Shown: positions 34,293-56,474 of the stretch, in pieces
Numbering within the stretch: position 1 is the stretch's first letter
Layout of the letters: each line of letters opens with the position of its first letter
DNA from: Sphingomonas sp.
Lineage (GTDB): Bacteria > Pseudomonadota > Alphaproteobacteria > Sphingomonadales > Sphingomonadaceae
Assembly: GCF_036387535.1 (NCBI RefSeq)
Contig: NZ_DASVTO010000072.1
Location: 219-64,218 of the forward strand
DNA length: 64,000 nucleotides
Reading direction: 5' to 3'
The notes under the pieces: model-generated
Told to the model about the DNA's origin: nothing
Database searches by the model: none
Seen by the model: the letters and a program-made list of their open reading frames with translations, nothing else
Made by a program: the position numbers and the translations under genes

Positions 34293-35468
34293 TCAGGCGG
34301 CGTTGGCGGCGACGCCGGCGGCGAGATCGGCGAAATAGCTGTCGGTGATGCGCTGGATCAGCGTCATCGATTCCAGCGGCGGCGTCGGGGTGTAATCGTA
34401 ATCGATCGTCACCTTGCCGGCCGACAGGCTCGTCGTCGGGTTCTTGGCGACGTCGAACCACGCCTCCCCGCCCAGGATCAGCCCGGCGGTGCGCAGCTGG
34501 CGCAGCTCCGCATTGATGATCTCGACGATGTCGCGCACCAGGCTCGGCCGCAGCGGCTTGTCGATCGCCCAGGTCATGCCGGCGGCGATCGTATCCTGCA
34601 GCACCTGGGCGGTGCGGGTCGCGCTTTCGAACGCGAACAGCGGGTCGGCCGAGCAGGTGCGCTGACCCCAGATGCGGAAGCCGCCGCCAGTGCGGACGAT
34701 GGTCGAGACCTGCGCGGCGTTGAGCAGGTTCGCCTCGCACGCCGGATCCTGGATATCGAACTGGATATCCTTGGTGGTGCCCAGCACGCCCAGGACCGGG
34801 ACATTGCTGATCGTCTTGTTCCAGCCCTGCTCGGCATCGATCGCGGCGCGCAGGCCCATCGCGCGGGCGGTGGCGAAACTGGTGGCGTTGGCGCCGGTGG
34901 CGGCATCGAACGCGATGAAATCGGGGGTGAGCAGCATCAGCTCGCGCGACGCGAAGCCGCCGCGGTAGGTGATGGCGGCGGCGATGTCGGCGCCGATCGC
35001 GGCGGCATAGACCATCGCGCGCAGCTTCTTCGCGATCACAGTCAGCGCGGTGGTGACCGCCGCCGTGTCGAGGCCAGGCGCGCCGAGGATGCGCGGTTTG
35101 ATGCCGAGCCGGCCCTCGGCCGCGAGCAGCGCCTGCATGCCCGTCTTTAGCCCTTGTGGCGTCGTGGTGCCGATGACGCTGGCGTTCGTGGCGGCGGCGT
35201 CTGCACCGGGGGCGACGCGGATCACGATCAGGACCGGCCGCGCCTGATCGGCGATGGCGCGGAGCGCGCCGTGGAGCGTGCCGGCGACACCGGCCTTCCC
35301 GATCGCGGCGTCCAGGTCGGTGATGAGGACGGGCGTGTCGAGCGGGAAGACGGTCGCATCGGCATCGGGCGCGGTCGCGAGCAGGCCGATGACGGCGGTG
35401 GCGACGGTGACCAGGCTGCGCTGGGCCGCGCTGGTCTCGGTAACGGAAATGCCGTGCGAATAGGCCAT
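34293..35468 (-). CDS. FI: Tail sheath protein FI
   Basis: MAYSHGISV, FPLDTPVL, KPRILGAPG, GWNKTISN, GFRIWGQRTCS, DYDYTPTPPLE. Confidence 0.95.
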   Translation of the reverse strand: MAYSHGISVTETSAAQRSLVTVATAVIGLLATAPDADATVFPLDTPVLITDLDAAIGKAGVAGTLHGALRAIADQARPVLIVIRVAPGADAAATNASVIGTTTPQGLKTGMQALLAAEGRLGIKPRILGAPGLDTAAVTTALTVIAKKLRAMVYAAAIGADIAAAITYRGGFASRELMLLTPDFIAFDAATGANATSFATARAMGLRAAIDAEQGWNKTISNVPVLGVLGTTKDIQFDIQDPACEANLLNAAQVSTIVRTGGGFRIWGQRTCSADPLFAFESATRTAQVLQDTIAAGMTWAIDKPLRPSLVRDIVEIINAELRQLRTAGLILGGEAWFDVAKNPTTSLSAGKVTIDYDYTPTPPLESMTLIQRITDSYFADLAAGVAANAA

Positions 35469-36429: not shown

Positions 36430-36475
36430 GGTGCCGAACCATGGCGCGCGCGCCGATTTCGTGCGCGGCCCCGGT

Positions 36476-36498
36476 CTTGTAGAATGCGTTTCTACAAG
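36476..36498. promoter_or_regulatory. Late-promoter activator site upstream of V
   Basis: CTTGTAGA-N7-TCTACAAG palindrome, repeated at 45206 and 56405. Confidence 0.8.
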
Positions 36499-36746
36499 GC
36501 TCGACGGTTCGGAGGAGCATCGATCGCGGCCTCAAGCTGATCGCCCAGGACCGCCATCAGAGCGGAGAGATCGCCGCGCGAGACCGGGGCTTCGCCGCAC
36601 CAGGTCACCGTGCCGCCGTCATGGAGCAGGTCGGCCAGTCCCCGCATCGCATCGCGCACGGTGATCAGGCGCGCATGCGGGTCCGGATCGATGACGTCCC
36701 GCGATCGATCGACCGGGCTGATATCCTCGGTGGCCAGCAACCGCAT
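36492..36746 (-). CDS. Hypothetical protein
   Basis: Follows 36748-36966 after 1 bp; TAG stop lies within the palindrome. Confidence 0.55.
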   Translation of the reverse strand: MRLLATEDISPVDRSRDVIDPDPHARLITVRDAMRGLADLLHDGGTVTWCGEAPVSRGDLSALMAVLGDQLEAAIDAPPNRRAL

Positions 36747-45161: not shown

Positions 45162-45205
45162 CGCCCTATGTCGGCCGGGGCGGGGCTCGTGGGCTATATG
45201 CCAGC

Positions 45206-45228
45206 CTTGTAGAGTGGGTTTCTACAAG
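45206..45228. promoter_or_regulatory. Late-promoter activator site upstream of J
   Basis: CTTGTAGAGTGGGTTTCTACAAG. Confidence 0.8.
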
Positions 45229-45941
45229 GGCGTCTTCCGAGAGCTCATCTTATCCGGGGCCGGTAGAGCCTTGGACCGTCGTGGGATAGACCCTTTCATT
45301 TCCAGTGCGCTGCCTCCCTCGATGAACGCCTTGCGGAGGAACAGCTCCATGGCGCCGATCAGCTTTCTAAGCTGATCGGCATCTGGCGACCAACCACGAT
45401 GGGCGGCCGCATTCCCTGCATCAGTTACAACCTCAAGCTGCTCGAGCTCGTTCTGACCTATACGACCTGTCTCCAGCAATTTGTCGAGCTTCTTCCTAAA
45501 GCTGAGCTCAGTATCAATCTCAAGAAGTTCAGTGGCACGATCGAGAGCGGTTCGCAGCCCTATGGCAGCGAGGATGGCAGACCCGCCCTCGGAGGCTAAA
45601 TACATTTGTTCAAGAATGACTCTCAGCTGATGGTCAGTCGCTTCCAGCTGGGCAACCCACTCCGGCCGCTCCCGCGCCCCTGGATGTGGAAACGTCTGCA
45701 CGGTAGGCGTGTGGCAAGCATAAGATCGTTCTTCGGCATGATCATACTCATCCTCCCATTCCTCGCTATTAGTGGCGCTCTGATGGAAGAAGACGGTTTC
45801 GCATCCTCGGCATTCAAGAAGGCTGTAGACTGTTTCCTCCCAGAAAAAGTCCTGCTCAAAACGCTGAGTGGTGGAGCCGTGAATTTTGCAGGAGCGCTTG
45901 CCGTTGCAATTTGGGCAATGGGCGCTTGTCTTCTTCGGCAT
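45222..45941 (-). CDS. DUF4145 (HEPN-like) moron with N-terminal zinc ribbon
   Basis: CPNC...CRGC; AAIGLRTALD, FRKKLDKL, DAGNAAAH; lower GC. Confidence 0.8.
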   Translation of the reverse strand: MPKKTSAHCPNCNGKRSCKIHGSTTQRFEQDFFWEETVYSLLECRGCETVFFHQSATNSEEWEDEYDHAEERSYACHTPTVQTFPHPGARERPEWVAQLEATDHQLRVILEQMYLASEGGSAILAAIGLRTALDRATELLEIDTELSFRKKLDKLLETGRIGQNELEQLEVVTDAGNAAAHRGWSPDADQLRKLIGAMELFLRKAFIEGGSALEMKGSIPRRSKALPAPDKMSSRKTPL

Positions 45942-45967
45942 GAGTCCGCCTTGAAATATGCTGATCT

Positions 45968-46435
45968 TTAGGCTGGCATTGATGCCAGCACCGCGTCCAG
46001 CATGATTTTTCGCTCGGTATCGGTCAGACCAAGAATCTCGCGCTTCGCATAGCGAACCTTGGCCTGACCCTTCGCCGGTGCATCCTCCCGGCCCTCTTGG
46101 TGGATACGCGCCACGCGCGCCGCCTCACCGCTGAAACCGATCCAGGCTTCCCGGTCGGTGGCGCCCGCCTGCAGATGCTTCGCCAGGCGAAGCCTGCGGA
46201 ACATTGCGGCGCGTTTGATCCGGCCCTTCCGGCGCAGCCGCCCCTTTGGCTGATCTTTGGCCTTGCGCGGGGCAAACGGTGTCCCGTCCGGCTGGATCTG
46301 GGCGGCGATCCGGGTGCGCTGACTCTTTGCGATCTCGCGCGCCACGGTGCGCAGCAGCGTGCGGCGCTCGGCCGGCGCGACACCCCGCAAGAGCGCGCCC
46401 GCCAGATCCTCGAGCTGGTCGAGGCCGTCGCTCAT
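45968..46435 (-). CDS. S: gpS virion morphogenesis / tail completion protein
   Basis: SQRTRIAAQIQPDGTPFAPRK, MFRRLR, ARIHQEG, YAKREILG. Confidence 0.92.
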   Translation of the reverse strand: MSDGLDQLEDLAGALLRGVAPAERRTLLRTVAREIAKSQRTRIAAQIQPDGTPFAPRKAKDQPKGRLRRKGRIKRAAMFRRLRLAKHLQAGATDREAWIGFSGEAARVARIHQEGREDAPAKGQAKVRYAKREILGLTDTERKIMLDAVLASMPA

Positions 46436-46941
46436 GGCGCGGGCGGCTGGAAGGCGGGATCGCGGGTTTCGGCGATCAATTCATCGCGCAGGAACAGTTG
46501 CCACAGATTTTGGCCGCAGACGCCGGGAAAGTGATCCGGCTGGGCCGCGTCGTCGTCGAGATGGACGACGTCATAGCCGACGCCGGCGGCGCGCGGGGTG
46601 ACCCGGACGCGTTCGGTCAGATCGATGTCGATTCTGACGTCCGCGGACTCTTCGTCCTGGATCTCGGTTTCGAAAGTGAAGGGCTGCTGATCCTCACGCT
46701 TGAGCAGATCGGGTTGCTGCTCGGCGATCCATGCGACGATCGGGACCATGACCGCGTCCACATTGCCGGCGAACGCAAGCAGCGTGACGGTCAGCGTGTA
46801 GCGATATTCGAACGACAGCGATGCTCCGGCGCGCGCGCCGATCGCGCCGCGCTCGACCGACATTTGCAGCCGATCGGGGTTGTCCGCCAGACCGGGGACA
46901 GCCTTGAGCAGCAGGCGGCGGAGGCCGTTTGGCTTATTCAT
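46432..46941 (-). CDS. R: gpR tail completion protein
   Basis: MNKPNGLR, SFEYRYTL, QQPDLL, IDLTERVRV. Confidence 0.92.
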   Translation of the reverse strand: MNKPNGLRRLLLKAVPGLADNPDRLQMSVERGAIGARAGASLSFEYRYTLTVTLLAFAGNVDAVMVPIVAWIAEQQPDLLKREDQQPFTFETEIQDEESADVRIDIDLTERVRVTPRAAGVGYDVVHLDDDAAQPDHFPGVCGQNLWQLFLRDELIAETRDPAFQPPAP

Positions 46942-47260
46942 CGGAGATCCTCACGCCATAGCCCCAAGCCCGGATCGTCTCGATCGTCAGGCCCTCGGGC
47001 AGACGTCGGCGCAGGTTGCAGATCGCGACCTTCAACTGGTCGGGGTTGGTATCTTCGCCGGTGCCGACCAGCGTCAGGCCGAGCGTCGACACATCGCCGC
47101 GTTGCGCCAGCAGCCCCAGCATTGCGATCTGGCGCGGCGACAGCTTTATCCTGACCCCCCGCCAATAGGCGGCGGGGGGATCGGACTGGACGGTGAGCGG
47201 ACCGCGACGATGGGTGCCGCCGCGCACCGCGCCGCATTCGGAGCAGATCGCGCAGCTCAT
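46934..47260 (-). CDS. Stand-alone OmpR/PhoB-type winged-helix protein
   Basis: IKLSPRQIAMLGLL...LKVAICNLRRRLPEGLTIETIRAWGY; N-terminal CAICSEC; no receiver domain. Confidence 0.75.
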   Translation of the reverse strand: MSCAICSECGAVRGGTHRRGPLTVQSDPPAAYWRGVRIKLSPRQIAMLGLLAQRGDVSTLGLTLVGTGEDTNPDQLKVAICNLRRRLPEGLTIETIRAWGYGVRISDE

Positions 47261-47694
47261 CCGGCATAGGCGGCAGCGCGGGCGATCAACCGTTGCTTGC
47301 CTGCGGCCCAGCCGGCCGAAGCGATCTTGGCCTGCACATGCTGTTCGGTCGCGTGCGTGCAGTCGATCGTCGAGACCGGTTCGATCGTGACGTCCACCGC
47401 ATGATCGAGCGCGACCTTCGCGTTGCCGGCGAGTCGACAGGTCCATGTTCCATTCACGTTGTCGACCGGCGCGATCCCATCGTTCAGCGTAATGAACTCG
47501 CGCGTTCCACCGGCCCCGCCGTCGATGACGTAGCTGTGCCCCAGCTCCGGTTTGAAGTCGAGGACGACGCTGGTCGGGGTGCCCGCCACCGTCGCGACCT
47601 TGAGCTTACCCTTCGCGCCCGCAGGAACCGGCCAGCGATTCTCGTTGGGGCTGGCGTTCTTGAGGGTCAGGTCATGGTCGAAGACCCCCTCCAT
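47257..47694 (-). CDS. C-terminal part of the SGNH domain, in frame with the upstream gene
   Basis: Same frame, 12 nt after the TAA; contains GVFDHD and DCTH (DxxH). Confidence 0.6.
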   Translation of the reverse strand: MEGVFDHDLTLKNASPNENRWPVPAGAKGKLKVATVAGTPTSVVLDFKPELGHSYVIDGGAGGTREFITLNDGIAPVDNVNGTWTCRLAGNAKVALDHAVDVTIEPVSTIDCTHATEQHVQAKIASAGWAAGKQRLIARAAAYAG

Positions 47695-47706
47695 GATGCC
47701 TTCGGC

Positions 47707-50235
47707 TTAGACCCCGGCAGATCCGCGATACCATGCGATGACGGCCTGCCGATCGGTGGTCCCATTCGGCTCCATGAGTACCTGATCGGTGACCGTCGCG
47801 TATGAGCCGGTGGGCACAGGCCCGGCTGGGACGCTTGACGGCCCCTGCACGTAGAAGTCGGGCGTCACGCCAAACACCTGAATGTTCGGGTCTTTTGCGC
47901 GGAGGCGACCGATGCCGGTTTTTGCGTTCGCAATGAAGTTGGTGACGCCGTTGCGCCAATGCTGCAGGACCACCTGCCGGAACAGCCAGCGGTCGGTCTG
48001 GCCGACCAGAACGCCGAATTCCTCCCACGTCGACAGTGCGTCACGACCGTTGGTATTCGGTCCGAAGAACGCCCCCGGTCCCGCCCCGTAGCGGACGTTT
48101 CCGACCACTGGAACCGCACCGCCATTGGACGGGTCGGTGAGCAGATGGCGCAGCGGACCTTCGGACGAGCGTCCGTTCACGACCCGCCCATAATGTTCGA
48201 TGCTGTCTCCGGCCACGACCACCGATGGGCCAGAGCTGTCGTCGACCTGCGACCACATGCCGCACACCGGATAGGCCGAGATCGAGCCGACAGCAGCGGG
48301 GGAACCGGTGCCGGTATGGAATGCGACATCGCTGATCTTGGACGCGATCAGGCGGTTGCGGTGATTGAGGCGGCGACCGCCGATCGGAACCTGATCCCAG
48401 ACCCGGAGATGGAGATCGGCCGCCGGCAGCGCGCCGTGGCGGAATGCGAAAATGGCACCGGCCTCGAACACGAACGGGTTACCGGCCGCAATCGGCTGAC
48501 CATTGGCGGGGTGCAGCACCGGATAGACCGTGCTGGTCGCCGGATCGAGGATATCGACGCGGTGATAGGTATTCTGGCTGGTGCCGGTGGTCGACATCGC
48601 GTCACCATTGGTGCTGCCCGAGAAATAGCGATTACCGCCCAGCAACCAGCCGCCCGTGCAGGCGCGGGGATGGTTCAGAAGCGTGGTGCTTTGCGAGAAT
48701 TCGCGCTTCGTCCCGTTGGTTGCCGTGGCGCTGTCGGGGACCACCCCATAGGCGTCCAGCTCCATCGGCCAGTTGAGGCCGGTCGATGCAATCGCCATCC
48801 GCGCGGCAGCGGCGGTCACCACCACGCGAGCGGTTGCACCGGTAGCGCCGGCGGCGGCGACGGCATAGTCGGTCGTGCCGGCCGTCGACACGGTCAGGCC
48901 GATAACGCCCTTCCACCCGTTGGTCGCATCGCCGGCAACGACGACGCGGCCATCGGCCGGCGTGATCGTCGGGGTCACCCCGGCCGGAACGCCTGCGATG
49001 TTGAAGACCAGCGTCCCGGCCGGCGCGCCGGCGGTGAAGGCCAGCGGGCCGGTGATGACCAGCGTCGGCGTGACGGCCGGGGTCGCGATCGTCACGACAT
49101 GCGTGAACAGCGTGGCGTTGCCCGCCGCGTCGATGGCGCGCAGATTGGCGGTGAAGGTCGGCTTGCCGGCATTGTAGGCCTGCGCCGGCAGGGTCAACGT
49201 GGTCCCGGCGAGGCCGAACAGATCCGTGTCGGCGCCGGTCCGCTTCTCGAACGTCACCGCCTCATTGGCCGCAAGGGTGACGCTGTACGCCGTGGAGGCC
49301 GCGACCGTGGCGGTTGCAGCCGACGTGACCAGCGGCGCGATCTCGTCGAGATCCGTGACGTTCACCGTCACCGCGAAGTTGGTCGCATTGCCGGCGGCAT
49401 CGGTGGCGGTCAGGTTGCAGACGAAGGCGGTCTTGCCGCCTTCATAATCCTGCGCGGGCAGCGACAGGGTCGCGCCAGCGAGGGTGAACGATGCACTGTC
49501 GGCTCCCGTGCGCTTCGAGAAGGTCACCGCTTCGTCGGCGGTCAGCGTGATCGCCCAGCCGGTGTTTTCGACGACGGTGGCGGTCAGCGCGGAGGTAATG
49601 ACAGGCGGGCGCGTATCCACGACGGGCGCCGGGGCGGCGACCGTCACGACATGGGTGAACAGGGTGGCGTTGCCGGCGCCGTCGAGCGCGCGCAGGTTGA
49701 CGGTGAAGGTGACCTTGCCAGCATTATAGGTCTGCGCGGGCAGCGTCAGCGTGGTGCCGGCCAGCCCGAACAGGTCGCCATCCGCGCCGGTGCGCTTTTC
49801 GAAGGACACCGCCTCATTGGCGGTCAGCGTCACCGCATAGCCGGTCGCGGCTGCGATCGTCGCGGTCGGTGCCGACGTGATCAGCGGCGCAATTTCATCG
49901 ACGTCGGTCACGGTGACGGTCACCGCAAAGTTGGTGACGTTGCCGGCCGTGTCCATAGCCACGAGGTTGCAGACGAACGCGGTCTGCCCGCCCTCATAAT
50001 CCTGCGCCGGCAGCGACAGCGTCGCGCCCGCCAGCGTAAAGGCCGCGCTGTCTGCAGCGGTGCGCTTGACGAAGCTGACATTCTCGTTCGCCAGCAGCGT
50101 CATGCTCCACGCGGTGTTTTCGCGCGTGGTGGCGGTGAGCGGCGAGGTGATGATCGGCGCGACGCCGTCGATCGGTGCGACGATGGTGGCGCTGCCACCG
50201 ATTTCGATCACTTGGATCCCGTGCATATAGGCCAT
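47707..50235 (-). CDS. Cadherin-like repeat / SGNH-hydrolase virion protein candidate, interrupted by an in-frame TAA
   Basis: Sheath-like N-terminus MAYMHGIQVIE; four ~90-aa repeats (DYE, D.AGN, VTDxDE); VVVAGDS motif near 48205. Confidence 0.75.
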   Translation of the reverse strand: MAYMHGIQVIEIGGSATIVAPIDGVAPIITSPLTATTRENTAWSMTLLANENVSFVKRTAADSAAFTLAGATLSLPAQDYEGGQTAFVCNLVAMDTAGNVTNFAVTVTVTDVDEIAPLITSAPTATIAAATGYAVTLTANEAVSFEKRTGADGDLFGLAGTTLTLPAQTYNAGKVTFTVNLRALDGAGNATLFTHVVTVAAPAPVVDTRPPVITSALTATVVENTGWAITLTADEAVTFSKRTGADSASFTLAGATLSLPAQDYEGGKTAFVCNLTATDAAGNATNFAVTVNVTDLDEIAPLVTSAATATVAASTAYSVTLAANEAVTFEKRTGADTDLFGLAGTTLTLPAQAYNAGKPTFTANLRAIDAAGNATLFTHVVTIATPAVTPTLVITGPLAFTAGAPAGTLVFNIAGVPAGVTPTITPADGRVVVAGDATNGWKGVIGLTVSTAGTTDYAVAAAGATGATARVVVTAAAARMAIASTGLNWPMELDAYGVVPDSATATNGTKREFSQSTTLLNHPRACTGGWLLGGNRYFSGSTNGDAMSTTGTSQNTYHRVDILDPATSTVYPVLHPANGQPIAAGNPFVFEAGAIFAFRHGALPAADLHLRVWDQVPIGGRRLNHRNRLIASKISDVAFHTGTGSPAAVGSISAYPVCGMWSQVDDSSGPSVVVAGDSIEHYGRVVNGRSSEGPLRHLLTDPSNGGAVPVVGNVRYGAGPGAFFGPNTNGRDALSTWEEFGVLVGQTDRWLFRQVVLQHWRNGVTNFIANAKTGIGRLRAKDPNIQVFGVTPDFYVQGPSSVPAGPVPTGSYATVTDQVLMEPNGTTDRQAVIAWYRGSAGV
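49080..50163 (-). repeat. Four cadherin-like domains arranged A-B-A-B
   Basis: Repeats 1 and 3 share FTLAGATLSLPAQDYEGG.TAFVCNL; repeats 2 and 4 share DLFGLAGTTLTLPAQ.YNAGK.TFT.NLRA. Confidence 0.85.
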
Positions 50236-50239
50236 GGGT

Positions 50240-50785
50240 TCAGTCTTTCGCGGGAGAGAGGGTGACGCCGGCGCGGCCGAGCAGCGTTTCCAGCCGCGAC
50301 CAGGCGCCGAGCGCATCGAGCGCGGGGTTGAGCCAGTCGGTCAGGACGCAGTAGCGCCGGTCGGACGGGGGGCGATGGTGGCCGGCATGATGGGCGGGCG
50401 ACTGGAGGATGCCGATCTGCTGCAGCACGCGCGCCAGGCGCGGCGCGTGGGCGGGCGCATGCGTCCAGCCATGCACGGTCGACGATAGCGCCGCGCCGAT
50501 CGCCGCCGCCAGCAGCACGACGGACGGACCGAGCAGCAGCAGCCAGAGCGCGGCGCCGATCGCCGCCGTGATCCAGGTCGACAGGTTGCGGGTCAGCAGC
50601 GACCCGGCCAGGAAAGCCACCGGATCACGGTGATGGCGGCGATTCGGCGCGATCACGGTGCGGCCGAGCCACGGCCAGTCCTCGCGGCCGAGCCGATCCT
50701 CCCACCAGTGGACGATGCCGCCGAGCAGATCGGCGATGAGCCAGCCGACGAGCAGCTGACCGATGATCGCGAACAGGTCCATCAT
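50240..50785 (-). CDS. CarF/TMEM189/FAD4-family lipid desaturase
   Basis: ADLLGGIVHWWED, RRHHRDP, HGWTH, LQQIGILQSPAHHAGHH, YCVLTDWLNPALD. Confidence 0.85.
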   Translation of the reverse strand: MMDLFAIIGQLLVGWLIADLLGGIVHWWEDRLGREDWPWLGRTVIAPNRRHHRDPVAFLAGSLLTRNLSTWITAAIGAALWLLLLGPSVVLLAAAIGAALSSTVHGWTHAPAHAPRLARVLQQIGILQSPAHHAGHHRPPSDRRYCVLTDWLNPALDALGAWSRLETLLGRAGVTLSPAKD

Positions 50786-51105
50786 CTGGCCTCCGGACAG
50801 GAGGCGGGATCGTTCCAGTCGATCAGGCGGCCGAGCTGGCGGGCGAGCGCGGCATAGGCGGTGGCCAGCCGGATCGCTGCGAAGCGGACGGCCGGCGGCA
50901 TGGTCGCCTCCGCATCGCGCGGGAAACCCTCGGGTGCGACCGGGCAGGCGAGCAGCTCGGCCGGCGGGCGGGTCGGCGTGGCGACCGCGACCGCGCTCGG
51001 GGCGGCGGGCCTAGCGGGCTGCATCGCGCAGCCCGGCAGTGCGATTGAGAGCATCGAACCAATCGCGACCGACGCGATCGTCCGGACCGACCTTGGCATT
51101 GGCAT
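50782..51105 (-). CDS. o-spanin (Rz1-like lipoprotein)
   Basis: Lipobox ALPGC, Pro-rich, PPAELLACP; overlaps the i-spanin 3' end. Confidence 0.75.
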   Translation of the reverse strand: MPMPRSVRTIASVAIGSMLSIALPGCAMQPARPAAPSAVAVATPTRPPAELLACPVAPEGFPRDAEATMPPAVRFAAIRLATAYAALARQLGRLIDWNDPASCPEAR

Positions 51106-51523
51106 TCTCCATGATGGTGGCGGCGGCGCGCGCATCGCGGGCGGCGCGGGCGGCCGTGGCGACGTCGCGGGTGCGCTTGGCGTCCTGTTCGGCGATGGCG
51201 TCGGCGAGCAGCCGCGCCGTGGATATGGCGGCGTCGTGGCGGAAGGCGACGAGCGCGCGGATCTCGGCCTCGCAACGGGTGCCGCGCGGATAGACCAGCA
51301 CCGTGCCGACCGGCGTCGCCGGATCGACGGCGCTGGCGGCGAAGGGGACGGCGGTGGCCGCGCAGGTGCGATCCGCCCAGGCGATCAGGCCGTCGCGTTC
51401 GGCTCGGACATGTGCCCCCCAGGCGTAGAGCGTGGCAGCGGCGGCGGCGACCGCTAGCAGCAGCAGCCAGCGGCCTTGGCCGGCGACCAGGCCCCACGCC
51501 CATTTGGCGGTGGCGACGATCAC
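51011..51523 (-). CDS. i-spanin (Rz-like)
   Basis: N-terminal TM followed by an Ala-rich coiled coil; follows the endolysin. Confidence 0.7.
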   Translation of the reverse strand: MIVATAKWAWGLVAGQGRWLLLLAVAAAAATLYAWGAHVRAERDGLIAWADRTCAATAVPFAASAVDPATPVGTVLVYPRGTRCEAEIRALVAFRHDAAISTARLLADAIAEQDAKRTRDVATAARAARDARAAATIMENANAKVGPDDRVGRDWFDALNRTAGLRDAAR

Positions 51524-51996
51524 AGCGCCAGTTCCTTGACCAGGTCGGCGACCTCGAAGCACGGGCAGTTCTTCAGCCATTCGAACTTGTCGATGCGTCC
51601 GTTGGCGTTGACGTCGGGCGACCAGTCGCGATGGCCGAGGATCTTCGCCTTGGGGAACTGAACGCGCAGCGCCTGCAACAGCAGCGCCATGGACTCGCGC
51701 TGGGGGGCGGTCCGCGTGTCAGCGGCCGTCTTCGCATCCGCCTCGACACCGCCCACATAGCAAATGCCGATATTGCCGCTGTTCTTGCCACCGACGTGCG
51801 CGCCGCGCTGGTCGTGGCGCAGCGTCTGCACGACGTTGCCGTCCAGCTCGATCACATAATGATAGCTGGCCTGGCCGAACTTGGCGGTATCCCATTTAGA
51901 GATGGTCGCCGCCTTCACGTTGCGGCCGCGCGGGGTCGCGGCGCAGTGGATCGTGATGGCGGTGATGGCGTTCGGGTTCATCCATGCGACGGACAT
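51520..51996 (-). CDS. Endolysin, N-acetylmuramoyl-L-alanine amidase (T7 lysozyme-like)
   Basis: ITIHCAAT, SYHYVIELDG, GAHVGGKN, IGICYVGG, GHRD, KNCPCF. Confidence 0.92.
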   Translation of the reverse strand: MSVAWMNPNAITAITIHCAATPRGRNVKAATISKWDTAKFGQASYHYVIELDGNVVQTLRHDQRGAHVGGKNSGNIGICYVGGVEADAKTAADTRTAPQRESMALLLQALRVQFPKAKILGHRDWSPDVNANGRIDKFEWLKNCPCFEVADLVKELAL

Positions 51997-52340
51997 CAGG
52001 CGGCGTCCTTCTTCCGCGCGATCCAGTCGCGCACCACGGTGGGAAGGGAGGCGATCATGTCGATCAGCGCGGCGGCGAACTTTGGCGCAGCCTTGTAGGC
52101 GATCATGGCCAGCACGAAGCCGACCGCCTGACTGACGAACTGATCGAAATGGAACCACGATGTCAGGCCGAGCGTGACATAATAGGAGACCAGGATGCCG
52201 ACGACATAGGCGATCAGCCGGTCGCGCCAGTCCATGCCGCGCTCATAGAGCTGCGCCACCAGCGAGCCGAGCGCGGCCGGGGCGAGCGCCGAGCAGGCCG
52301 CCTTGGCGGCATCGGCGAGATCGAGGAAGGGGGTGGCCAT
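51996..52340 (-). CDS. Holin candidate
   Basis: Small multi-TM protein with basic C-terminus, between X and the endolysin. Confidence 0.75.
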   Translation of the reverse strand: MATPFLDLADAAKAACSALAPAALGSLVAQLYERGMDWRDRLIAYVVGILVSYYVTLGLTSWFHFDQFVSQAVGFVLAMIAYKAAPKFAAALIDMIASLPTVVRDWIARKKDAA

Positions 52341-52344
52341 GCGA

Positions 52345-52560
52345 TCAGTCCCAGAGATTGACGACGGCGCGGGTCGCGGTGGTCGGAGCGGAGAGCGGCA
52401 CGCGGATGGCGGTGCCGATCGGCAGCACCGCGCCCAGCCCGGCCACCCCGGCGTTCGCATCCAACAGCGCGGGGAGATCGGCCGGGCCGAGGCCGCGTTC
52501 GCGCCAGGCGAGTTCGTCGAGCGTGTCGCCCTGGCGCGCGTGGAGGATATCGTCGGCCAT
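52345..52560 (-). CDS. X: gpX tail protein (LysM-like)
   Basis: ARQGDTLDEL, ANAGVAGLGAVLPIGT, VNLWD. Confidence 0.9.
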   Translation of the reverse strand: MADDILHARQGDTLDELAWRERGLGPADLPALLDANAGVAGLGAVLPIGTAIRVPLSAPTTATRAVVNLWD

Positions 52561-53063
52561 CAGATCAGATCGACCGTGGTGCGGTCGCGGCCGAGCAGAT
52601 CGCGGATGGCGTGGCGGCCGTCGCGGCGGAGATCGTCGGGCGTCTGATCGAGCGCGTCGGCCTTGCGGTCGCCGGCGGCGGTGGTGTCGATGTCGCGGTA
52701 GCGCTCGACCAGCTCGGCCTTGGCGAAACAGGCGACGGCGCGGATGTAGAGGATGGTGTTGCGGCTCTGGCCGTCGAGACGCGGCGCGGGGATGGCGGCG
52801 AGCGTGGCGTGGCCTTCGGCTTGGCGCGCGGCCTGCCATTCGACCAGGTCGTTGCTGACGGTCAGCACCGCGCCGACCGCCGCCGATCGCAGCCGCTCCG
52901 GGGTGACGGACTCGCGCACGCGGATCTCGCGGCGCAGCCGTGCCAGGTCGATGTCCGGCAACCAGCCGTCATTGACGATCGGCGCGTCGATCATCGGAAC
53001 GGCGGGTGGAATGACGGACGTCCCGCAATCGTCCGATCCGCCGCTGTAGACGAACCCGCTCAT
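52560..53063 (-). CDS. L: gpL head completion protein
   Basis: NDGWLPDIDL, VTPERLR, ERYRDIDTT, RTTVDLI. Confidence 0.92.
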   Translation of the reverse strand: MSGFVYSGGSDDCGTSVIPPAVPMIDAPIVNDGWLPDIDLARLRREIRVRESVTPERLRSAAVGAVLTVSNDLVEWQAARQAEGHATLAAIPAPRLDGQSRNTILYIRAVACFAKAELVERYRDIDTTAAGDRKADALDQTPDDLRRDGRHAIRDLLGRDRTTVDLI

Positions 53064-53272
53064 GCGAGCATCAGCCGGGCGAAGCGGTCACCGGCCAGCA
53101 CGAACAGGCCGAGCCCGACCGTGATGTAGAAGATCATCGACAAGAGCAGGATCAGGCGGCGATCGGCGGGGATGTCCGGATGGTCCGCGCAGGCCAAGGC
53201 AGCGCTGGCGACGATCTGCACGGCGGCCAGCGCCATGAACAGCATCAGCAGGGCGGCGGCGACGAACGTCAT
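53060..53272 (-). CDS. Two-TM small protein inserted between M and L
   Basis: AAGGA RBS, ATGA-coupled to L. Confidence 0.6.
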   Translation of the reverse strand: MTFVAAALLMLFMALAAVQIVASAALACADHPDIPADRRLILLLSMIFYITVGLGLFVLAGDRFARLMLA

Positions 53273-53387
53273 GGTGCGATCCTTGGTAGTTACGGGGGTG
53301 GGGATCGGGACGTGCCGCGGCCCTCAAGCCCCGAAGGGCTCCTCCCGCGTCGTGCGATCCGTCCCCGAGCGCCGGGGGGCGAGCTGG

Positions 53388-54317
53388 TTAGGCGGCCGGT
53401 GGGCCGGATTGTTCGGTGTCGGCCGGGGGCGCCGGCGGCGTGACGTCGGTAGCGGGCGGGGCTTCGGGCGCGACCGGGGGCGCCAACAGCAGCTTCTCCA
53501 GCCGCTTGATATGGCCCTTTACGCCGCTGCGATCGTGGAGCGCCTGCGCGCGGCGAAGCGGCGCCAGCGCCCGTTCGGTGAGCCCACGATATTCGGGGCC
53601 GGCCGCGTCGAGATCGTCGGCTTGGCGGATCAGCTCGACGCCGATCGCCTTCATCAGCTTGGCGCGGATTTCGTCGTGCATGTCGGCATGCGCGGTGAGT
53701 GCGTCGACCTCTTCCAGGATCTCGAGCGAGAAGGGTTGGTCGGCCGCCTGCGCCTTCAAGGCTGCCTCCGCCATCTCCTCCGCGATCAGCGCCGGCGCCG
53801 ACCGATTGTAGCGCACGGGCAGCGGGATATCGTGGCGCAGAACATAGGCGGCGAGAGGGAGCGCGCCGGCATAGTCGCCGGCATCGATCCGCCAGATCAT
53901 GACGGTCGGCAGGATCTCTCCGCCGACCGCATGATCGGCATCTTCGGAGGCGGCCAGGATCCCGTCGACCCAGGCCGCATATTCCGGCAGCAGTTCGTCG
54001 CGCTTGATCTCCGCGCGGCGCTCGATCGAGGCGACGTCCTTCAGGCGGCGCAGATCGTGGCGCAGGCGAAGGCGCATCTGCGCCTCGACCCCGTTCGCCG
54101 GCGGGCGTGCCAGCGGATCGCCCTCGCTGGTTTCCGACAGGTCGACGGCCTCGCCCGCGGCGTGCAGCACCTGGTGCAGGCGCGCGGGCGAATGTCCGTC
54201 GATGATGACGACGGCCGTCATGTCCGGCTTCTCGGCCAGATCGACGCCGACCACGACCAAGTCGCCGCTTGCCGCCAGCGCGGCGAGGCGTTCACGATGG
54301 TGACGGGCTGGGCTCAT
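53388..54317 (-). CDS. M: gpM terminase small/endonuclease subunit
   Basis: SPARHH, DLRRLKDVASIERR, LPEYAAWVDG, MIWRIDAGD, DMHDEIRAKL, GVKGHIKRLE. Confidence 0.92.
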   Translation of the reverse strand: MSPARHHRERLAALAASGDLVVVGVDLAEKPDMTAVVIIDGHSPARLHQVLHAAGEAVDLSETSEGDPLARPPANGVEAQMRLRLRHDLRRLKDVASIERRAEIKRDELLPEYAAWVDGILAASEDADHAVGGEILPTVMIWRIDAGDYAGALPLAAYVLRHDIPLPVRYNRSAPALIAEEMAEAALKAQAADQPFSLEILEEVDALTAHADMHDEIRAKLMKAIGVELIRQADDLDAAGPEYRGLTERALAPLRRAQALHDRSGVKGHIKRLEKLLLAPPVAPEAPPATDVTPPAPPADTEQSGPPAA

Positions 54318-54363
54318 GGGATCGGTCCTGGAACGAGGGGGCGGGCTGGATCGGCGAAGCGGA

Positions 54364-55416
54364 CTAGAGCTTCGGCGACAGCTGGATGTTCTCGATCAGG
54401 CAGGCCTTGCCGTATTCCTCGACCATGAAGGCGTCGTTGATGCTTTCATAGTTCTCGATCTGGTCGAGCGCGGGCTCTTCCTTCACGTGGCGGCGCGCCG
54501 AACCCATCTGCCAATAATAGGACAGGTTCTTGAGGCTCGTGATCATGATGGCGTTGGCGGGGAAAAACGGCACCTGCATGGTCGGCTTTCCGCCCAGCTG
54601 GCGGCTCGACATGATGATGTCGCGCGCCACCTGTTCGGTCGCCTTGTCGCCTGCCGCTGAGATGATCTTGAAATACTTGTCCTGGACCAGGTCGCTGCCG
54701 ACGATCACGACCAGGTCGGTCGCGGTCCGAAACTGGTCGGCGAGCAGGTTGTGGATGGCGTCGAACACCAGCGCATCGAGGTTCACATAGTCGGCGTTGC
54801 CGGTGTCCGACACGTAGACCTTGAGATTGTCCTTGGTGCCGTGCGTCATGACGCGCGCGCCGGCATAGGTCCGCATCTTGTAGAGCCAGCCCCAGTTTAC
54901 GTCCTGGAGCAGCGGATAGGCGGTGCGGTCGGTCTGCACCGCGGCGTTCACGCCGTTGAACCCGATCGTGATAACGTCGGCCGCCTTCTGGATGATGACG
55001 GCGTCACGGCAGAGCTGTTGGAATTCCGGACGATGCACCCAGGCGTCGAGCAGGCCGTAGCTCCACGCGTAATCATAGTCGGTCTTCTTGCAGAAATACT
55101 GGTCGATCGCGTCGCTGCCGGTCGGATCGGTCGGCGTCCGGCGGTTGCCCGCGGCGCGGTTCGTGCGGCTGGCGAGCGAACGGTTGATGCCGACCCCGAC
55201 ACGCGCGCCCTGCTGGGCCGGCACCGGGATCACGTTGATCCGCGACATGAAGTCGCTGGTCAACGCCAGCTTGGCCTGCAACTTCTGTTCGATGACGGCC
55301 GAGACCGCGAACTGGCGGATCTCGCCGGGGACGGCCGTGAAGCTGAAGTCCAGCCCGTTCAGCTGGGCGACCTGCCCAATATACGCGTTGAAGAGGACGC
55401 GGGTGTTGTTCTGCAT
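54364..55416 (-). CDS. N: gpN major capsid protein
   Basis: MQNNTRVLFNAY, IGFNG, PLLQDVNWGW, DYVNLDALV, VPFFP, NLSYYWQ. Confidence 0.95.
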   Translation of the reverse strand: MQNNTRVLFNAYIGQVAQLNGLDFSFTAVPGEIRQFAVSAVIEQKLQAKLALTSDFMSRINVIPVPAQQGARVGVGINRSLASRTNRAAGNRRTPTDPTGSDAIDQYFCKKTDYDYAWSYGLLDAWVHRPEFQQLCRDAVIIQKAADVITIGFNGVNAAVQTDRTAYPLLQDVNWGWLYKMRTYAGARVMTHGTKDNLKVYVSDTGNADYVNLDALVFDAIHNLLADQFRTATDLVVIVGSDLVQDKYFKIISAAGDKATEQVARDIIMSSRQLGGKPTMQVPFFPANAIMITSLKNLSYYWQMGSARRHVKEEPALDQIENYESINDAFMVEEYGKACLIENIQLSPKL

Positions 55417-55475
55417 GGTGGGGTCCTATGGCTGGACGATAATCGGGGGCGGGGTCGGCGGGGGCGGCGGGCGGA

Positions 55476-56306
55476 TCAGCAGTCGGTCGCGTACTGCGCG
55501 TCGGCGGCCGCGCCGGTGGCCGGTTGGCGGCTGAAGCCAGGTAGCTCGGTCTTGTCGAGCTTGCCGGTCAGCACCGCGAAGTCGGCGGCAAGCTTCGTCA
55601 CCTGGGCGGTGATCGGGCCGGTCGCGGCGGCGACACCGGCGGACACGGCCTCGCTCATGGCGGTGTAGAGCGCGGCATTGTCGTTGGCGGGCGCGGGCGG
55701 GGTCACGACGGGTTCGGGCTTCGGTTCGGTCGGCTTGAACCCGAGCCGGGCGAAGGTGGCGGCGACCGCGGCGGATACGGTCGCCGCGAGACCGGCGGGC
55801 TCGATCTGCGCCGCCTCGAACTCGATCGCCACGGCTTCGTCCGCCAGGCCGAAGACGGTCCCGGGGCCGCTGCGCGAGAAGTTGAGTGGCTGGGTGGCGA
55901 TGCTGGCCGGCGTATCGGTGAACGCCAGGCCGACGACGCCGACCTTGCCGCAGCCGGCATAGCTGTCGGTCAGCTCGACCGACGGGAACGGCTTCTGGTC
56001 TTCCTTGGCGAGCTTCACCAGCTGCGCGTTGCCGTCGACCTGCATGTAGAGCGCGCGGCGCTTCTCGACCTTGCCGGCGATCGTGATGTCGTCGGTCTGC
56101 GCCTTGACCGCGGTAACGGTGCCATAACCGTTGAACGGGGGTTCGGGGCTGTAGCCGGCGATATGTTCGATGTTGATGCGCGGCGAATAGGTCTCCGCGT
56201 TGAAGGTCTCGACGATCTGGTCGATCATGTCCGCCGTGATCTTCCGGCCGTCGCTGATCGTATTGCCTTCGACAAAGGCGCGGAAGAATTTGCTCTTGGT
56301 GCCCAT
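55476..56306 (-). CDS. O: gpO capsid scaffolding/protease protein
   Basis: SKFFRAFVEGNTISDGRKI, RINIEH, GLAFTDTPAS, C-terminal TDC. Confidence 0.93.
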   Translation of the reverse strand: MGTKSKFFRAFVEGNTISDGRKITADMIDQIVETFNAETYSPRINIEHIAGYSPEPPFNGYGTVTAVKAQTDDITIAGKVEKRRALYMQVDGNAQLVKLAKEDQKPFPSVELTDSYAGCGKVGVVGLAFTDTPASIATQPLNFSRSGPGTVFGLADEAVAIEFEAAQIEPAGLAATVSAAVAATFARLGFKPTEPKPEPVVTPPAPANDNAALYTAMSEAVSAGVAAATGPITAQVTKLAADFAVLTGKLDKTELPGFSRQPATGAAADAQYATDC

Positions 56307-56404
56307 GGCGGCAGGATCCTCGGTCTCGGTTCGGCGGTTGATGCCCATCGGGCCTCTGACGCGCTGAAAAGGGACTGATCCCGGCCGCTTCTCAAGGCGG
56401 TGGT

Positions 56405-56427
56405 CTTGTAGAAAGCCACTCTACAAG
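56405..56427. promoter_or_regulatory. Late-promoter activator site between the divergent O and P genes
   Basis: CTTGTAGAAAGCCACTCTACAAG. Confidence 0.8.
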
Positions 56428-56474
56428 AGCGCTGCCTGATATGGCCATCCGGATCGTGGCTAGGTTCCGGCGCC

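What the first reader, a model, noticed from the sequence alone, without database searches (positions are those of the whole stretch)
46934..51105. Accessory block embedded in the late operon: spanin - lipid desaturase - sheath-tagged adhesin/esterase - winged helix - gpR
Seen: between the o-spanin and gpR, where P2 has no cargo, three genes lie on the same strand with overlapping or 4-bp junctions and host-like GC, so they look long-resident and co-expressed with lysis and tail genes. Typical morons instead have their own promoter and lower GC. Inference: a lytic-phase module pairing a membrane-lipid-modifying enzyme with a virion-attached surface-binding esterase, perhaps adapted to the glycosphingolipid/exopolysaccharide envelope of sphingomonads. 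I know of no described system with this make-up. Best candidate for a new system in the window.
Basis: partly seen in the sequence, partly recalled or inferred. Interest (0 to 1): 0.85.

Follow-up and report, generated by a model that had tools for sequence, protein, structure and literature searches.

The report
Three cargo genes in P2-like operon
Between the lysis genes and the tail-completion genes of a P2-like prophage lie three real, co-oriented accessory genes: a lipid desaturase, a long fibre that copies the tail sheath's linking strand, and a small DNA-binding protein. Relatives carry them in different combinations, so they are separate add-ons sharing one slot, not one new system.

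Summary
On the minus strand the order is o-spanin, a CarF/FAD4-family desaturase, one large gene, a 108-aa OmpR-type winged-helix gene, then gpR. Junctions are tight and GC is host-like.

The large gene is a single 992-aa ORF. The window's TAA at 47707-47709 reads TAT in an otherwise identical public contig.

Its first 11 residues copy the sheath's N-terminal handshake strand. A complex model places residues 2-16 on the sheath (score 0.66, best control 0.00), though this pass may reflect memory of solved sheaths. It most likely anchors a fibre of four cadherin-like repeats, with a probable SGNH esterase, on the apical sheath ring beside gpR. The AlgoCIS cap adaptor is a precedent.

The "one system" reading is only partly supported:
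- All three genes co-occur in two of six lineages that carry the tag.
- CarF sits alone before gpR in at least nine other P2-like prophages and also occurs in Mu-like phages.
- The fibre occurs without CarF and without the winged helix.
- Twelve other gpR loci sampled from the host's family had no cargo.

The CarF-like genes form a phage-associated clade that I did not find described. This scan has noted sheath-arm mimics before on other DNA.

The parts
51011..51580 (-). i-spanin-like gene (189 aa, N-terminal TM segment)
   Evidence: ORF and sequence. Conserved at 38-71% identity in the same position in related P2-like loci. No Pfam or PHROG hit. Assigned by position, topology and the embedded lipoprotein gene.
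50782..51105 (-). o-spanin-like lipoprotein gene (107 aa, lipobox LPGC); its stop overlaps the CarF start (ATGA)
   Evidence: Sequence. Homologues of 82-97 aa occupy the same place in relatives.
50240..50785 (-). CarF/FAD4-family membrane lipid desaturase, short form (181 aa, eight invariant His)
   Evidence: PF10520, E 8e-37. H26, H51, H52, H105, H109, H133, H136 and H137 are invariant in 35 homologues. Phage-associated clade 100/99; P2-slot clade 97/87.
50203..50235 (-). Sheath N-arm (handshake-strand) mimic, MAYMHGIQVIE, at the start of the large gene
   Evidence: 8 of 11 residues identical to this phage's sheath N-terminus MAYSHGISVTE. M1, H5, G6, I7 and E11 are invariant in 7 tagged proteins. 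Third-codon positions differ from the sheath gene. Residues 2-16 form the whole predicted interface.
49066..50160 (-). Four cadherin-like / bacterial Ig-like repeats (start residues 26, 116, 210, 300), made by duplication of a two-repeat unit
   Evidence: Weak Big_3 hits. 846 hits in the representative search, many of them multi-repeat proteins; cadherin names and Pfam labels come. A 300-nt direct repeat at 78% identity, 49076-49375 and 49628-49927. Repeat starts.
47257..49065 (-). Rest of the large gene: an Ig-like stretch, a beta-rich region and a probable SGNH-type esterase (GDS at 48196-48204; DxxH at 47353-47364)
   Evidence: G-D-S and D..H are invariant against P0002 and P0003. Atlas structural neighbours of P0002 residues 620-979: nine of the ten rows shown are GDSL/SGNH clusters, TM 0.40-0.54. 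No HMM, PDB or hhalign support. My AF2 model failed, pLDDT 31.
47707..47709 (-). In-frame TAA that splits the large gene in this assembly only; TAT (Tyr) in an otherwise identical public contig
   Evidence: Translation. P0295, 992 aa, differs only at *843Y and I847F. L105 differs from the window at 47707 and 47697 only, over 10,979 nt. Logan contigs break at 47693-47696.
46934..47260 (-). 108-aa OmpR/PhoB-type winged-helix protein without a receiver domain
   Evidence: Trans_reg_C, E 7.9e-5, below the Pfam cut-off. The profile matches C-terminal domains of response-regulator-sized ORFs in 143 other genomes. 21 of 23 weak PDB matches are OmpR-family DNA-binding domains. Orthologues seen only in closely related phages.
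46432..46941 (-). gpR tail terminator
   Evidence: PF06891, E 6e-44; PHROG 65 tail terminator.
45968..46435 (-). gpS tail completion protein
   Evidence: PF05069, E 8e-28.
56400..56428 (.). Late-promoter-type palindrome (TTGTAGA...TCTACAA) heading the operon that contains the block
   Evidence: Three-copy family D11 at 36471, 45201 and 56400. None lies inside 45230-56400.
45201..45229 (.). Next copy of the palindrome; marks the downstream end of the transcription unit, before the baseplate genes
34293..35468 (-). Tail sheath gene, whose N-terminus the large protein copies
   Evidence: Translation. 50-67% identical to sheaths of related phages.

Best explanation
The stretch is an accessory-gene slot inside the first late operon of a P2-like prophage. 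The host is an alphaproteobacterium whose phage relatives are in Sphingomonadales; the sample is a biocrust metagenome. The operon runs capsid, lysis, tail completion. The slot lies between the o-spanin and gpR and holds three separately inherited cargo genes, all read from the late promoter at about 56400.

1. A short CarF/FAD4-family di-iron membrane desaturase. It belongs to a phage-associated clade inherited vertically in this P2-like lineage. It most likely alters a host membrane lipid near the head group late in infection. It is not a plasmalogen (PEDS1-type) enzyme.

2. A 992-aa fibre. Its first roughly 11 residues mimic the strand that each sheath subunit donates to the ring below. The apical ring has no ring above it, so the fibre most likely plugs in there beside the gpR strand, six copies per virion. 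This resembles the cap adaptor Alg16B of AlgoCIS. It would display four cadherin-like repeats and a probable SGNH esterase that could bind or de-esterify host surface polysaccharide.

3. A receiver-less OmpR-type winged-helix protein of unknown target, found only in the closest relatives.

Shown: gene content, junctions, family memberships, synteny, tag conservation, the intact allele.

Inferred: co-transcription, virion attachment and its site, esterase activity, the lipid substrate.
For: - Gene map and junctions.
- Families.
- Single transcription unit: the palindrome occurs only at 36471, 45201 and 56400, with no minus-strand terminator-like site between.
- Independence of the three genes:
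  - L001 has all three.
  - L002 and L003/L004 have fibre plus winged helix, without CarF.
  - L027 and L103 have CarF plus tagged protein, without the winged helix.
  - L028-L032, L034, L037, L062, L069 and L071 have CarF alone before gpR.
- CarF also occurs in Mu-like phages, next to gp27/terminase or between the tail-S gene and the sheath gene.
- CarF tree: phage-associated clade 100/99; all 12 P2-slot sequences in one clade, 97/87.
- Eight invariant His. These match the eight His essential in all CarF homologues (PMC9131029).
- Tag:
  - Sheath N-termini of seven related phages share M..HG[IL].[VFQ]TE.
  - Tagged proteins share M...HGI...E, followed by a variable linker.
  - Only the sheath and this protein are true N-termini among 5 matches in 111,427 candidate starts in the host genome.
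- In P2 the handshake sheet uses the sheath N-terminus Gly7-Val10, and gpR anchors the apical ring by a beta-strand (preprint 10.64898/2026.09.14.750843).
- In AlgoCIS the Alg16B N-terminus and the cap C-terminus form a mimicked handshake that ends the sheath (PMC8894135).
- Complex model: score 0.66 (runs 0.73, 0.66, 0.60), best of 3 controls 0.00. That mark was reached by 58 of 80 solved complexes and 2 of 110 mismatched pairs. Partner pLDDT is at least 73 and at least 79% of contacts are shared between runs. The interface is partner residues 2-16 against sheath 239-251, 267-269 and 366-377.
- Intact 992-aa allele.
Against: - No expression or virion-protein data exist for this phage.
- The complex pass may come from the model's memory of solved sheath-sheath handshakes. 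It shows likeness, not binding.
- Whether the apical N-arm socket is empty in P2-like tails is not stated in the P2 preprint.
- The esterase assignment for the window's copy has no HMM, PDB or profile-profile support, and my model failed.
- The winged-helix match is below Pfam's cut-off.
- CarF and the tagged protein co-occur in four of six lineages that carry the tag, so a functional link is not excluded.
Confidence: 0.6

Rival explanations
1. The three genes are one co-adapted lytic-phase system. The desaturase alters the sphingolipid-rich envelope, the virion-borne esterase acts on the same envelope, and the winged helix controls them.
For: All three are translationally coupled in one operon. 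They co-occur in the window/L105 and in L001. CarF plus a tagged protein also co-occur in L027 and L103.
Against: Each gene occurs without the others: L002 and L003 lack CarF; L027 and L103 lack the winged helix; at least nine P2-like prophages have CarF alone. CarF also sits in Mu-like phages with no tagged protein nearby. The winged helix is confined to phages sharing 81-90% identical winged-helix proteins and 71-93% identical neighbouring late proteins, so its linkage can be plain descent.
Confidence: 0.12
2. The N-terminal sheath-like peptide does not anchor a fibre to the virion. Instead it could cap or poison sheath polymerisation, of this phage or of a competitor or tailocin, or serve as an assembly or chaperone signal. 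The protein itself would be released at lysis as a free adhesin or enzyme.
For: The same peptide could compete with sheath N-arms at every ring. The protein has no signal peptide and would be freed by lysis. This scan has noted small proteins that carry only a sheath arm (e1-5291031, unchecked).
Against: The gene sits next to gpR and gpS in every lineage. A roughly 1000-aa repeat-plus-enzyme architecture is typical of virion fibres. AlgoCIS offers a structural precedent for a mimicked handshake at the cap.
Confidence: 0.12
3. The cargo serves the lysogen (lysogenic conversion). Low-level expression from the prophage would change host lipids and surface properties, and the late-operon position would be incidental.
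For: Accessory genes in P2-like prophages often benefit the host. The host genome has only a distant (25% identical) Lipid_desat paralogue.
Against: There is no promoter-like site, no GC deviation and no own terminator. The genes are translationally coupled to spanin and gpR. The nearby DUF4145 gene shows what a typical moron looks like in this prophage (GC 0.55).
Confidence: 0.08
4. The large gene is dead in this prophage: the TAA is real and fixed in this strain. The block would then be decaying cargo with no present function.
For: The deposited genome has TAA at 47707-47709, which separates the GDS serine from the DxxH histidine.
Against: An otherwise identical contig and Logan's contigs of the biocrust run read TAT. 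There are no other lesions. An ATG with a GAAGG upstream follows the stop. The tag and repeats would still be made.
Confidence: 0.08

Closest known systems
AlgoCIS cap adaptor Alg16B (Algoriphagus machipongonensis extracellular contractile injection system; PMC8894135)
   Same: The protein's N-terminus, together with the cap's C-terminus, forms a mimicked sheath handshake at the distal end of the sheath. An Ig-like domain follows the N-terminal strand. It acts next to the cap/terminator.
   Different: Alg16B is 284 aa and has a structural role only. The protein here is 992 aa, with four cadherin-like repeats and a probable esterase. It sits in a P2-like phage, shows no detected sequence similarity to Alg16B, and its docking has not been shown.
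P2 gpFI sheath N-terminal arm and the gpW / gpR handshake partners (preprint 10.64898/2026.09.14.750843)
   Same: GIQV in the tag corresponds to the sheath N-terminal strand Gly7-Val10 that completes the four-stranded handshake sheet. gpR binds the apical ring by a beta-strand. The gene abuts gpR.
   Different: P2 has no gene between lysC and R, and the preprint's description of the P2 neck names only portal, adaptor and terminator. The tag replaces the sheath's conserved Thr10 with Ile, Leu or Glu.
CarF / PEDS1 (TMEM189) and plant FAD4, Pfam PF10520 (PMC9131029)
   Same: Same domain, and the same eight His that are essential in all homologues. A membrane protein with predicted hydrophobic segments flanking the His boxes.
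   Different: Much shorter: 181 aa against 281 aa for CarF, with three rather than four hydrophobic segments. It lacks the ninth His needed for PEDS1 activity, like the alphaproteobacterial homologue that failed to complement CarF. It is phage-borne and sits in late operons. Its substrate is unknown.
Virion-borne SGNH esterases on phage tail spikes and fibres
   Same: A fibre-like protein that ends in a GDS...DxxH domain. Positional equivalents in relatives (P0004; the L027 459-aa protein) pass Pfam Lipase_GDSL_2.
   Different: It would be attached at the head end of the tail by a sheath-strand mimic, not at the baseplate. The window's domain is too diverged for any HMM. That such esterases are known on phage spikes is from my own knowledge, not checked here.
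Morons and cargo of P2-like phages, such as the hot spot after gene S
   Same: Non-essential genes inserted at a fixed junction of a conserved late operon. Slot occupancy varies among relatives.
   Different: No own promoter or terminator, and host-like GC. Translationally coupled to neighbours. CarF is inherited vertically within the lineage.

Membership tests
CarF/PEDS1/FAD4 (PF10520 Lipid_desat) | Match to the family HMM above the curated cut-off | tested here: met
   127.4 bits against a cut-off of 26.4, E 8e-37, positions 1-164 of 175.
CarF/PEDS1/FAD4 (PF10520 Lipid_desat) | Eight histidines conserved in all homologues and essential for function | tested here: met
   H26, H51, H52, H105, H109, H133, H136 and H137 are invariant in 35 sequences. 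The requirement is from PMC9131029.
PEDS1-type plasmanylethanolamine desaturase (functional subgroup) | Ninth essential His (CarF H113 / mouse H131), present in metazoa, myxobacteria and Leptospira | tested here: not met
   No invariant His lies between the HH pair (51/52) and H105. Nine residues after the pair there is Gly61. The review reports its absence in Alphaproteobacteria and that such a homologue does not complement CarF.
SGNH/GDSL hydrolase | Match to a family HMM (PF13472 / PF00657) | tested here: not met
   No Pfam family at E<=10 for the window's C-terminal 522 aa or for P0002 residues 460-979. The profile finds nothing in PDB. hhalign against relatives' GDSL domains gives probability 1.7%. 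Positional equivalents P0004 and the L027 459-aa protein do pass.
SGNH/GDSL hydrolase | Block I GDS serine and block V DxxH | tested here: met
   AGDSIEH at residues 675-681 and DCTH at 958-961. G-D-S and D..H are invariant against P0002 and P0003. Motifs alone are weak evidence.
SGNH/GDSL hydrolase | SGNH alpha/beta fold | tested here: inconclusive
   For the Atlas model of homologue P0002 (35% identical), residues 620-979, nine of the ten neighbour rows shown are GDSL/SGNH clusters, TM 0.40-0.54. My own model has pLDDT 31.
Sheath handshake mimic (as gp25/gpW, terminator strands, Alg16B) | A terminal strand with the sequence character of the sheath arm, conserved under selection | tested here: met
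   8 of 11 residues identical to the phage's own sheath. Invariant M1, H5, G6, I7 and E11 across five 50%-identity clusters, with a variable linker. Synonymous differences from the sheath gene.
Sheath handshake mimic (as gp25/gpW, terminator strands, Alg16B) | The strand pairs in the handshake sheet of a sheath subunit | tested here: inconclusive
   A model only. Score 0.66 against a best control of 0.00; 58 of 80 solved complexes and 2 of 110 mismatched pairs reach that mark. Partner pLDDT is at least 73 and at least 79% of contacts are shared. Contacts are tag residues 2-16 with the sheath C-terminal strand region 366-377. The result may reflect memory of solved sheaths.
Sheath handshake mimic (as gp25/gpW, terminator strands, Alg16B) | Presence in the virion at the sheath end | not testable with these tools
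   Needs virion proteomics or cryo-EM.
OmpR/PhoB-type winged helix (PF00486 Trans_reg_C) | HMM match above the cut-off | tested here: inconclusive
   23.1 bits against a cut-off of 26.2, E 7.9e-5. A profile of four orthologues hits response-regulator C-domains in 143 other genomes. In PDB, 21 of 23 matches are OmpR-family DNA-binding domains, best E 7.7e-4. The AF2 model (pLDDT 55) has an H-E-H-hairpin core, but Foldseek was uninformative.
Moron (autonomous accessory unit in a prophage) | Own promoter and/or terminator, and deviant base composition | tested here: not met
   No sigma-70-like site and no minus-strand terminator-like site in the block. GC is 0.67-0.72 against 0.668 for the window. 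Start and stop codons overlap the neighbours.
Two-component spanin | An i-spanin with an N-terminal TM segment, plus an overlapping o-spanin lipoprotein gene with a lipobox | tested here: met
   TM-like WLLLLAVAAAAATLYAWGA in the 189-aa ORF. Lipobox LPG|C in the overlapping 107-aa ORF. Sequence features only.

The most novel reading that the evidence does not exclude
The short CarF-like enzymes are a previously unrecognised class of phage late or lysis auxiliary enzymes. They would desaturate a host membrane lipid (a phosphatidylglycerol acyl chain, as FAD4 does, or a sphingolipid) late in infection, to make the LPS-poor, sphingolipid-rich envelope of sphingomonads permissive for spanin-driven lysis or virion release. 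In the same lineage, a handshake-mimic fibre would define a general, undescribed way of hanging enzymes on the head end of contractile tails.
Probability: 0.2. Interest if true: 0.8.

Novelty: new variant of a known kind. Interest (0 to 1): 0.55.

Why it matters
The block is not a new three-part system, but two of its parts are leads of wider reach.

First, a clade of minimal CarF/FAD4-type desaturases is carried in late operons of P2-like and Mu-like phages, mostly of Sphingomonadales with a few Caulobacterales. This family is known from plasmalogen synthesis in animals and myxobacteria and from a chloroplast lipid in plants. I found no paper on phage copies. A 181-aa version with all eight catalytic histidines would also be a convenient minimal model for a family that has no solved structure.

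Second, the fibre gives a concrete, testable case of a protein attaching to a contractile tail by copying the sheath's own linking strand. A structural precedent exists in AlgoCIS, and this scan has noted several similar cases on other DNA. If true, it is a simple rule for predicting, and in laboratory phages for engineering, decorations at the neck of contractile tails.

The work also shows that the apparent nonsense mutation is not a fixed feature of this phage.

Tried and rejected
- AF2 model of the window's C-terminal 522 aa, read through with TAA=Q and a 3-row alignment: pLDDT 31, unusable.
- AF2 model of the winged helix: pLDDT 55. Foldseek against PDB gave nothing at E<=0.001.
- Profile of the C-terminal region against PDB sequences: no match at E<=10.
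- Pfam at E<=10 on the same region: nothing.
- hhalign against relatives' GDSL domains: probability 1.7%.
- Word-indexed homologue search with P0295 residues 640-992 among proteins of 194-618 aa: none.
- Winged-helix orthologues:
  - none in genome contigs with one protein or with the alignment;
  - only response-regulator C-domains in 400 genomes of the order;
  - only the three known relatives in IMG/VR.
- Tag-plus-repeat alignment in IMG/VR: only the four known relatives.
- No RNA holder listed for the stretch, so expression could not be examined.
- The single listed run is kept as contigs, so allele frequencies at 47707 could not be read.
- DNA alignment across the stop with L001 and L002 was uninformative, because the C-terminal halves are only about 35% identical.
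- Literature searches for phage CarF (CarF + prophage; plasmanylethanolamine desaturase + bacteriophage; PF10520) found nothing relevant.
- A first attempt to compare the host's second Lipid_desat gene used the wrong frame and was repeated.
- Considered and rejected: the tag as a recent DNA duplication of the sheath 5' end, because third-codon positions differ.
- Considered and rejected: CarF as a catalytically dead lysis regulator, because all eight His are invariant.
Full report
**Observation.** The region lies in a P2-like prophage whose late genes run on the minus strand. ORF listing, translation and Pfam/PHROG scans give this order, in the direction of transcription:
- Amidase_2 endolysin, 51996..51520.
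- i-spanin-like ORF with an N-terminal TM segment, 51580..51011.
- An overlapping o-spanin-like lipoprotein ORF, 51105..50782, lipobox LPGC.
- A 181-aa Lipid_desat/CarF protein, 50785..50240 (PF10520, E 8e-37).
- A large gene, 50235..47257.
- A 108-aa ORF with a weak Trans_reg_C match, 47260..46934.
- gpR, 46941..46432 (PF06891, E 6e-44).
- gpS, 46435..45968.
- A low-GC DUF4145 gene, 45941..45222.

There is an ATGA overlap at spanin/CarF, a 4-nt spacer between CarF and the large gene, an ATGA overlap before the winged-helix gene, and an 8-bp overlap with gpR. GC of the three cargo genes is 0.67-0.72, against 0.668 for the window and 0.55 for the DUF4145 gene.

**The large gene is one gene.** In this assembly it reads as 842 aa, then TAA, then four codons, then a 145-aa ORF in the same frame.
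- Relatives P0002 (979 aa) and P0003 (977 aa) align straight through the junction.
- The 90%-identity cluster of the 842-aa product holds a 992-aa member, P0295. It equals the window's read-through except *843Y and I847F.
- The ENA contig that carries it is identical to the window over 10,979 nt, except at 47707 and 47697.
- Logan's contigs of the one run that holds the stretch (a biocrust metagenome) break at 47693-47696, and the piece over the stop carries two other letters.

So the stop is an assembly error or a minor allele, not a fixed split.

**Transcription.** A palindrome of the kind that marks P2-type late promoters (TTGTAGA...TCTACAA; the comparison with P2 is from my own knowledge) occurs three times, at 56400, 45201 and 36471. 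None lies within 45230-56400, and no sigma-70-like or minus-strand terminator-like site was found there. By inference, the capsid, lysis, cargo and R/S genes form one late transcript. No RNA data were available.

**Is it one system?** Contexts of homologues were fetched and compared by tblastn. Six lineages carry a tagged protein in an informative context; a seventh, P0201/L104, lies on a contig too short to judge:

| Lineage | CarF | Tagged protein | Winged helix |
|---|---|---|---|
| window / L105 | yes | yes | yes |
| L001 | yes | yes | yes |
| L002 | no | yes | yes |
| L003 / L004 | no | yes (648 aa, different GDSL C-terminus) | yes |
| L027 | yes | yes (233-aa anchor; separate 123-aa and 459-aa GDSL ORFs) | no |
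| L103 | yes | yes (1488 aa) | no |

- CarF alone sits between the o-spanin and gpR in L028-L032, L034, L037, L062, L069 and L071.
- In Mu-like phages CarF lies next to Mu gp27/terminase (for example L033, L035, L038), between the tail-S gene and the sheath gene (L036, L045 and others), or directly after an amidase (L092, L093).
- In an unbiased sample, 12 other gpR loci among 150 genomes of the host's family had no CarF, tag or winged helix within 1.5 kb. In three of them the o-spanin abuts gpR, as in P2.

So the three genes are separable cargo sharing a rarely used slot.

**CarF-like gene.**
- At least 166 clusters of 165-215-aa homologues exist.
- Eight His are invariant in 35 of them. They match the eight His essential in all CarF homologues. 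The ninth His needed for PEDS1 activity is absent, as reported for Alphaproteobacteria, whose homologue does not complement CarF (PMC9131029).
- In a maximum-likelihood tree of 53 sequences, the alphaproteobacterial sequences, most of them in phage contexts, form one clade (100/99).
- All 12 P2-slot sequences fall in one clade (97/87). That clade also holds L090, where CarF lies before a P2-like sheath, and L073. This supports long residence in this lineage.
- Copies in non-phage contexts from Planctomycetota, Burkholderiales and Lysobacterales form a separate clade. In two of those loci, the CarF-like gene overlaps a downstream FA_hydroxylase gene.
- I found no paper on phage copies.
- The most likely role is a late-phase change of a host membrane lipid near the head group. 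The substrate is unknown.

**The tagged fibre.** The sheath gene starts MAYSHGISVTE (true start 35468). The large protein starts MAYMHGIQVIE.
- Sheaths of seven related phages (this one and six relatives) share M..HG[IL].[VFQ]TE.
- A search of 1.84 billion representative proteins with residues 1-130 found that the N-terminus itself aligns only in P0001/P0004, P0170, P0191 and P0201. All begin M...HGI...E, followed by a variable linker and then the first repeat. The other hits listed match only the repeats, many of them in long multi-repeat proteins.
- Third-codon positions differ between the two genes, so the likeness is kept at the protein level.
- In the host genome a relaxed motif matches 5 of 111,427 candidate starts. 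Only the sheath and this protein are real N-termini.

In P2, the handshake sheet contains the sheath N-terminus Gly7-Val10 donated to the unit below, and gpR holds the apical ring by a beta-strand. In AlgoCIS, the N-terminus of the cap adaptor Alg16B and the C-terminus of the cap form a mimicked handshake that ends the sheath.

A complex model of sheath residues 22-391 with fibre residues 1-125 supports binding but does not show it:
- Score 0.66 (runs 0.73, 0.66, 0.60), best of three controls 0.00.
- That mark was reached by 58 of 80 solved complexes and 2 of 110 mismatched pairs.
- Partner pLDDT is at least 73, and at least 79% of contacts are shared between runs.
- The interface is tag residues 2-16 against the sheath's C-terminal strand region 366-377 and residues 239-251 and 267-269.
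- Because solved sheath-sheath handshakes exist, the pass may reflect that likeness.

My reading is that six copies dock on the apical ring beside gpR.

**Rest of the fibre.** Four cadherin-like repeats arose by duplication of a two-repeat unit. They are followed by a region with GDS (residues 676-678) and DxxH (958-961), both invariant against P0002 and P0003. For the Atlas model of P0002 residues 620-979, nine of the ten structural-neighbour rows shown are GDSL/SGNH clusters, at TM 0.40-0.54. Every sequence-based test failed. I therefore rate 'esterase' at about two in three.

**Winged helix.** Support comes from a Pfam match below the cut-off, profile hits to response-regulator C-domains and weak PDB matches (21 of 23 are OmpR-family). 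Together they support an OmpR/PhoB-type DNA-binding domain without a receiver. Orthologues occur only in the closest relatives. Its target is unknown.

**Verdict.** The 'new system' reading is only partly supported. The interest lies in the parts: a phage clade of minimal CarF-type desaturases, and one more case of a sheath-arm mimic. This scan has noted such mimics before on other DNA (e1-1992666, e1-5343499, e1-5291031; not checked by me).

Noticed in passing
window 45222-45941 (-): A low-GC (0.55) DUF4145 gene (PHROG 1305, 'DNA binding protein') lies between gpS and the baseplate J gene. It ends at the second late-promoter palindrome. It looks like a classic moron at the P2 S|V hot spot. 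Relatives have other genes there (FRG domain in L003, a 245-aa ORF in L001).
   Followed up: partly
window 36471-36499, 45201-45229, 56400-56428: Three copies of a palindrome, CTTGTAGA-N-TCTACAAG, sit ahead of the three late gene blocks. They are probably binding sites of the late activator.
   Followed up: partly
G000:C133:39037-39396 (L006 1420-2100, minus): The host genome has a second, distant Lipid_desat gene (PF10520, E 6e-14; 25% identical to the phage copy) with the same His-box layout.
   Followed up: partly
L052 8469-10117; L057 5582-7236: In Burkholderiales and Bordetella-like MAGs, a chromosomal short CarF-like gene overlaps the start of a 365-aa FA_hydroxylase (PF04116) gene. This hints that the family works in pairs of di-iron lipid enzymes.
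   Followed up: no
L027 3885-6542: In a more distant relative the fibre is in pieces: a 233-aa tag plus two repeats, a 123-aa ORF with a weak T4_gp9_10_N match (E 7e-5, below the cut-off), a 459-aa Lipase_GDSL_2 protein and a 63-aa ORF. This suggests an anchor, adaptor and enzyme assembly.
   Followed up: partly
proteins P0009, P0231, P0262: Proteins with the same cadherin-like repeat begin instead with several copies of ATNG[FY]G[IT]PV. This may be a different N-terminal anchor.
   Followed up: no
window 47693-47709: Logan's contigs of the biocrust run end and start at 47693-47696, ten bases from the two sites that differ between assemblies. This suggests a bubble in the assembly graph, meaning two alleles in the sample.
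   Followed up: partly
L117, L118: In some P2-like prophages of the same bacterial family, gpX directly abuts gpR, so the lysis cassette must lie elsewhere.
   Followed up: no
window 49076-49375 and 49628-49927: A 300-nt direct repeat (78% identity, spacing 552 nt) inside the large gene. The four repeats are a duplicated pair; P0004 has only the first pair.
   Followed up: partly
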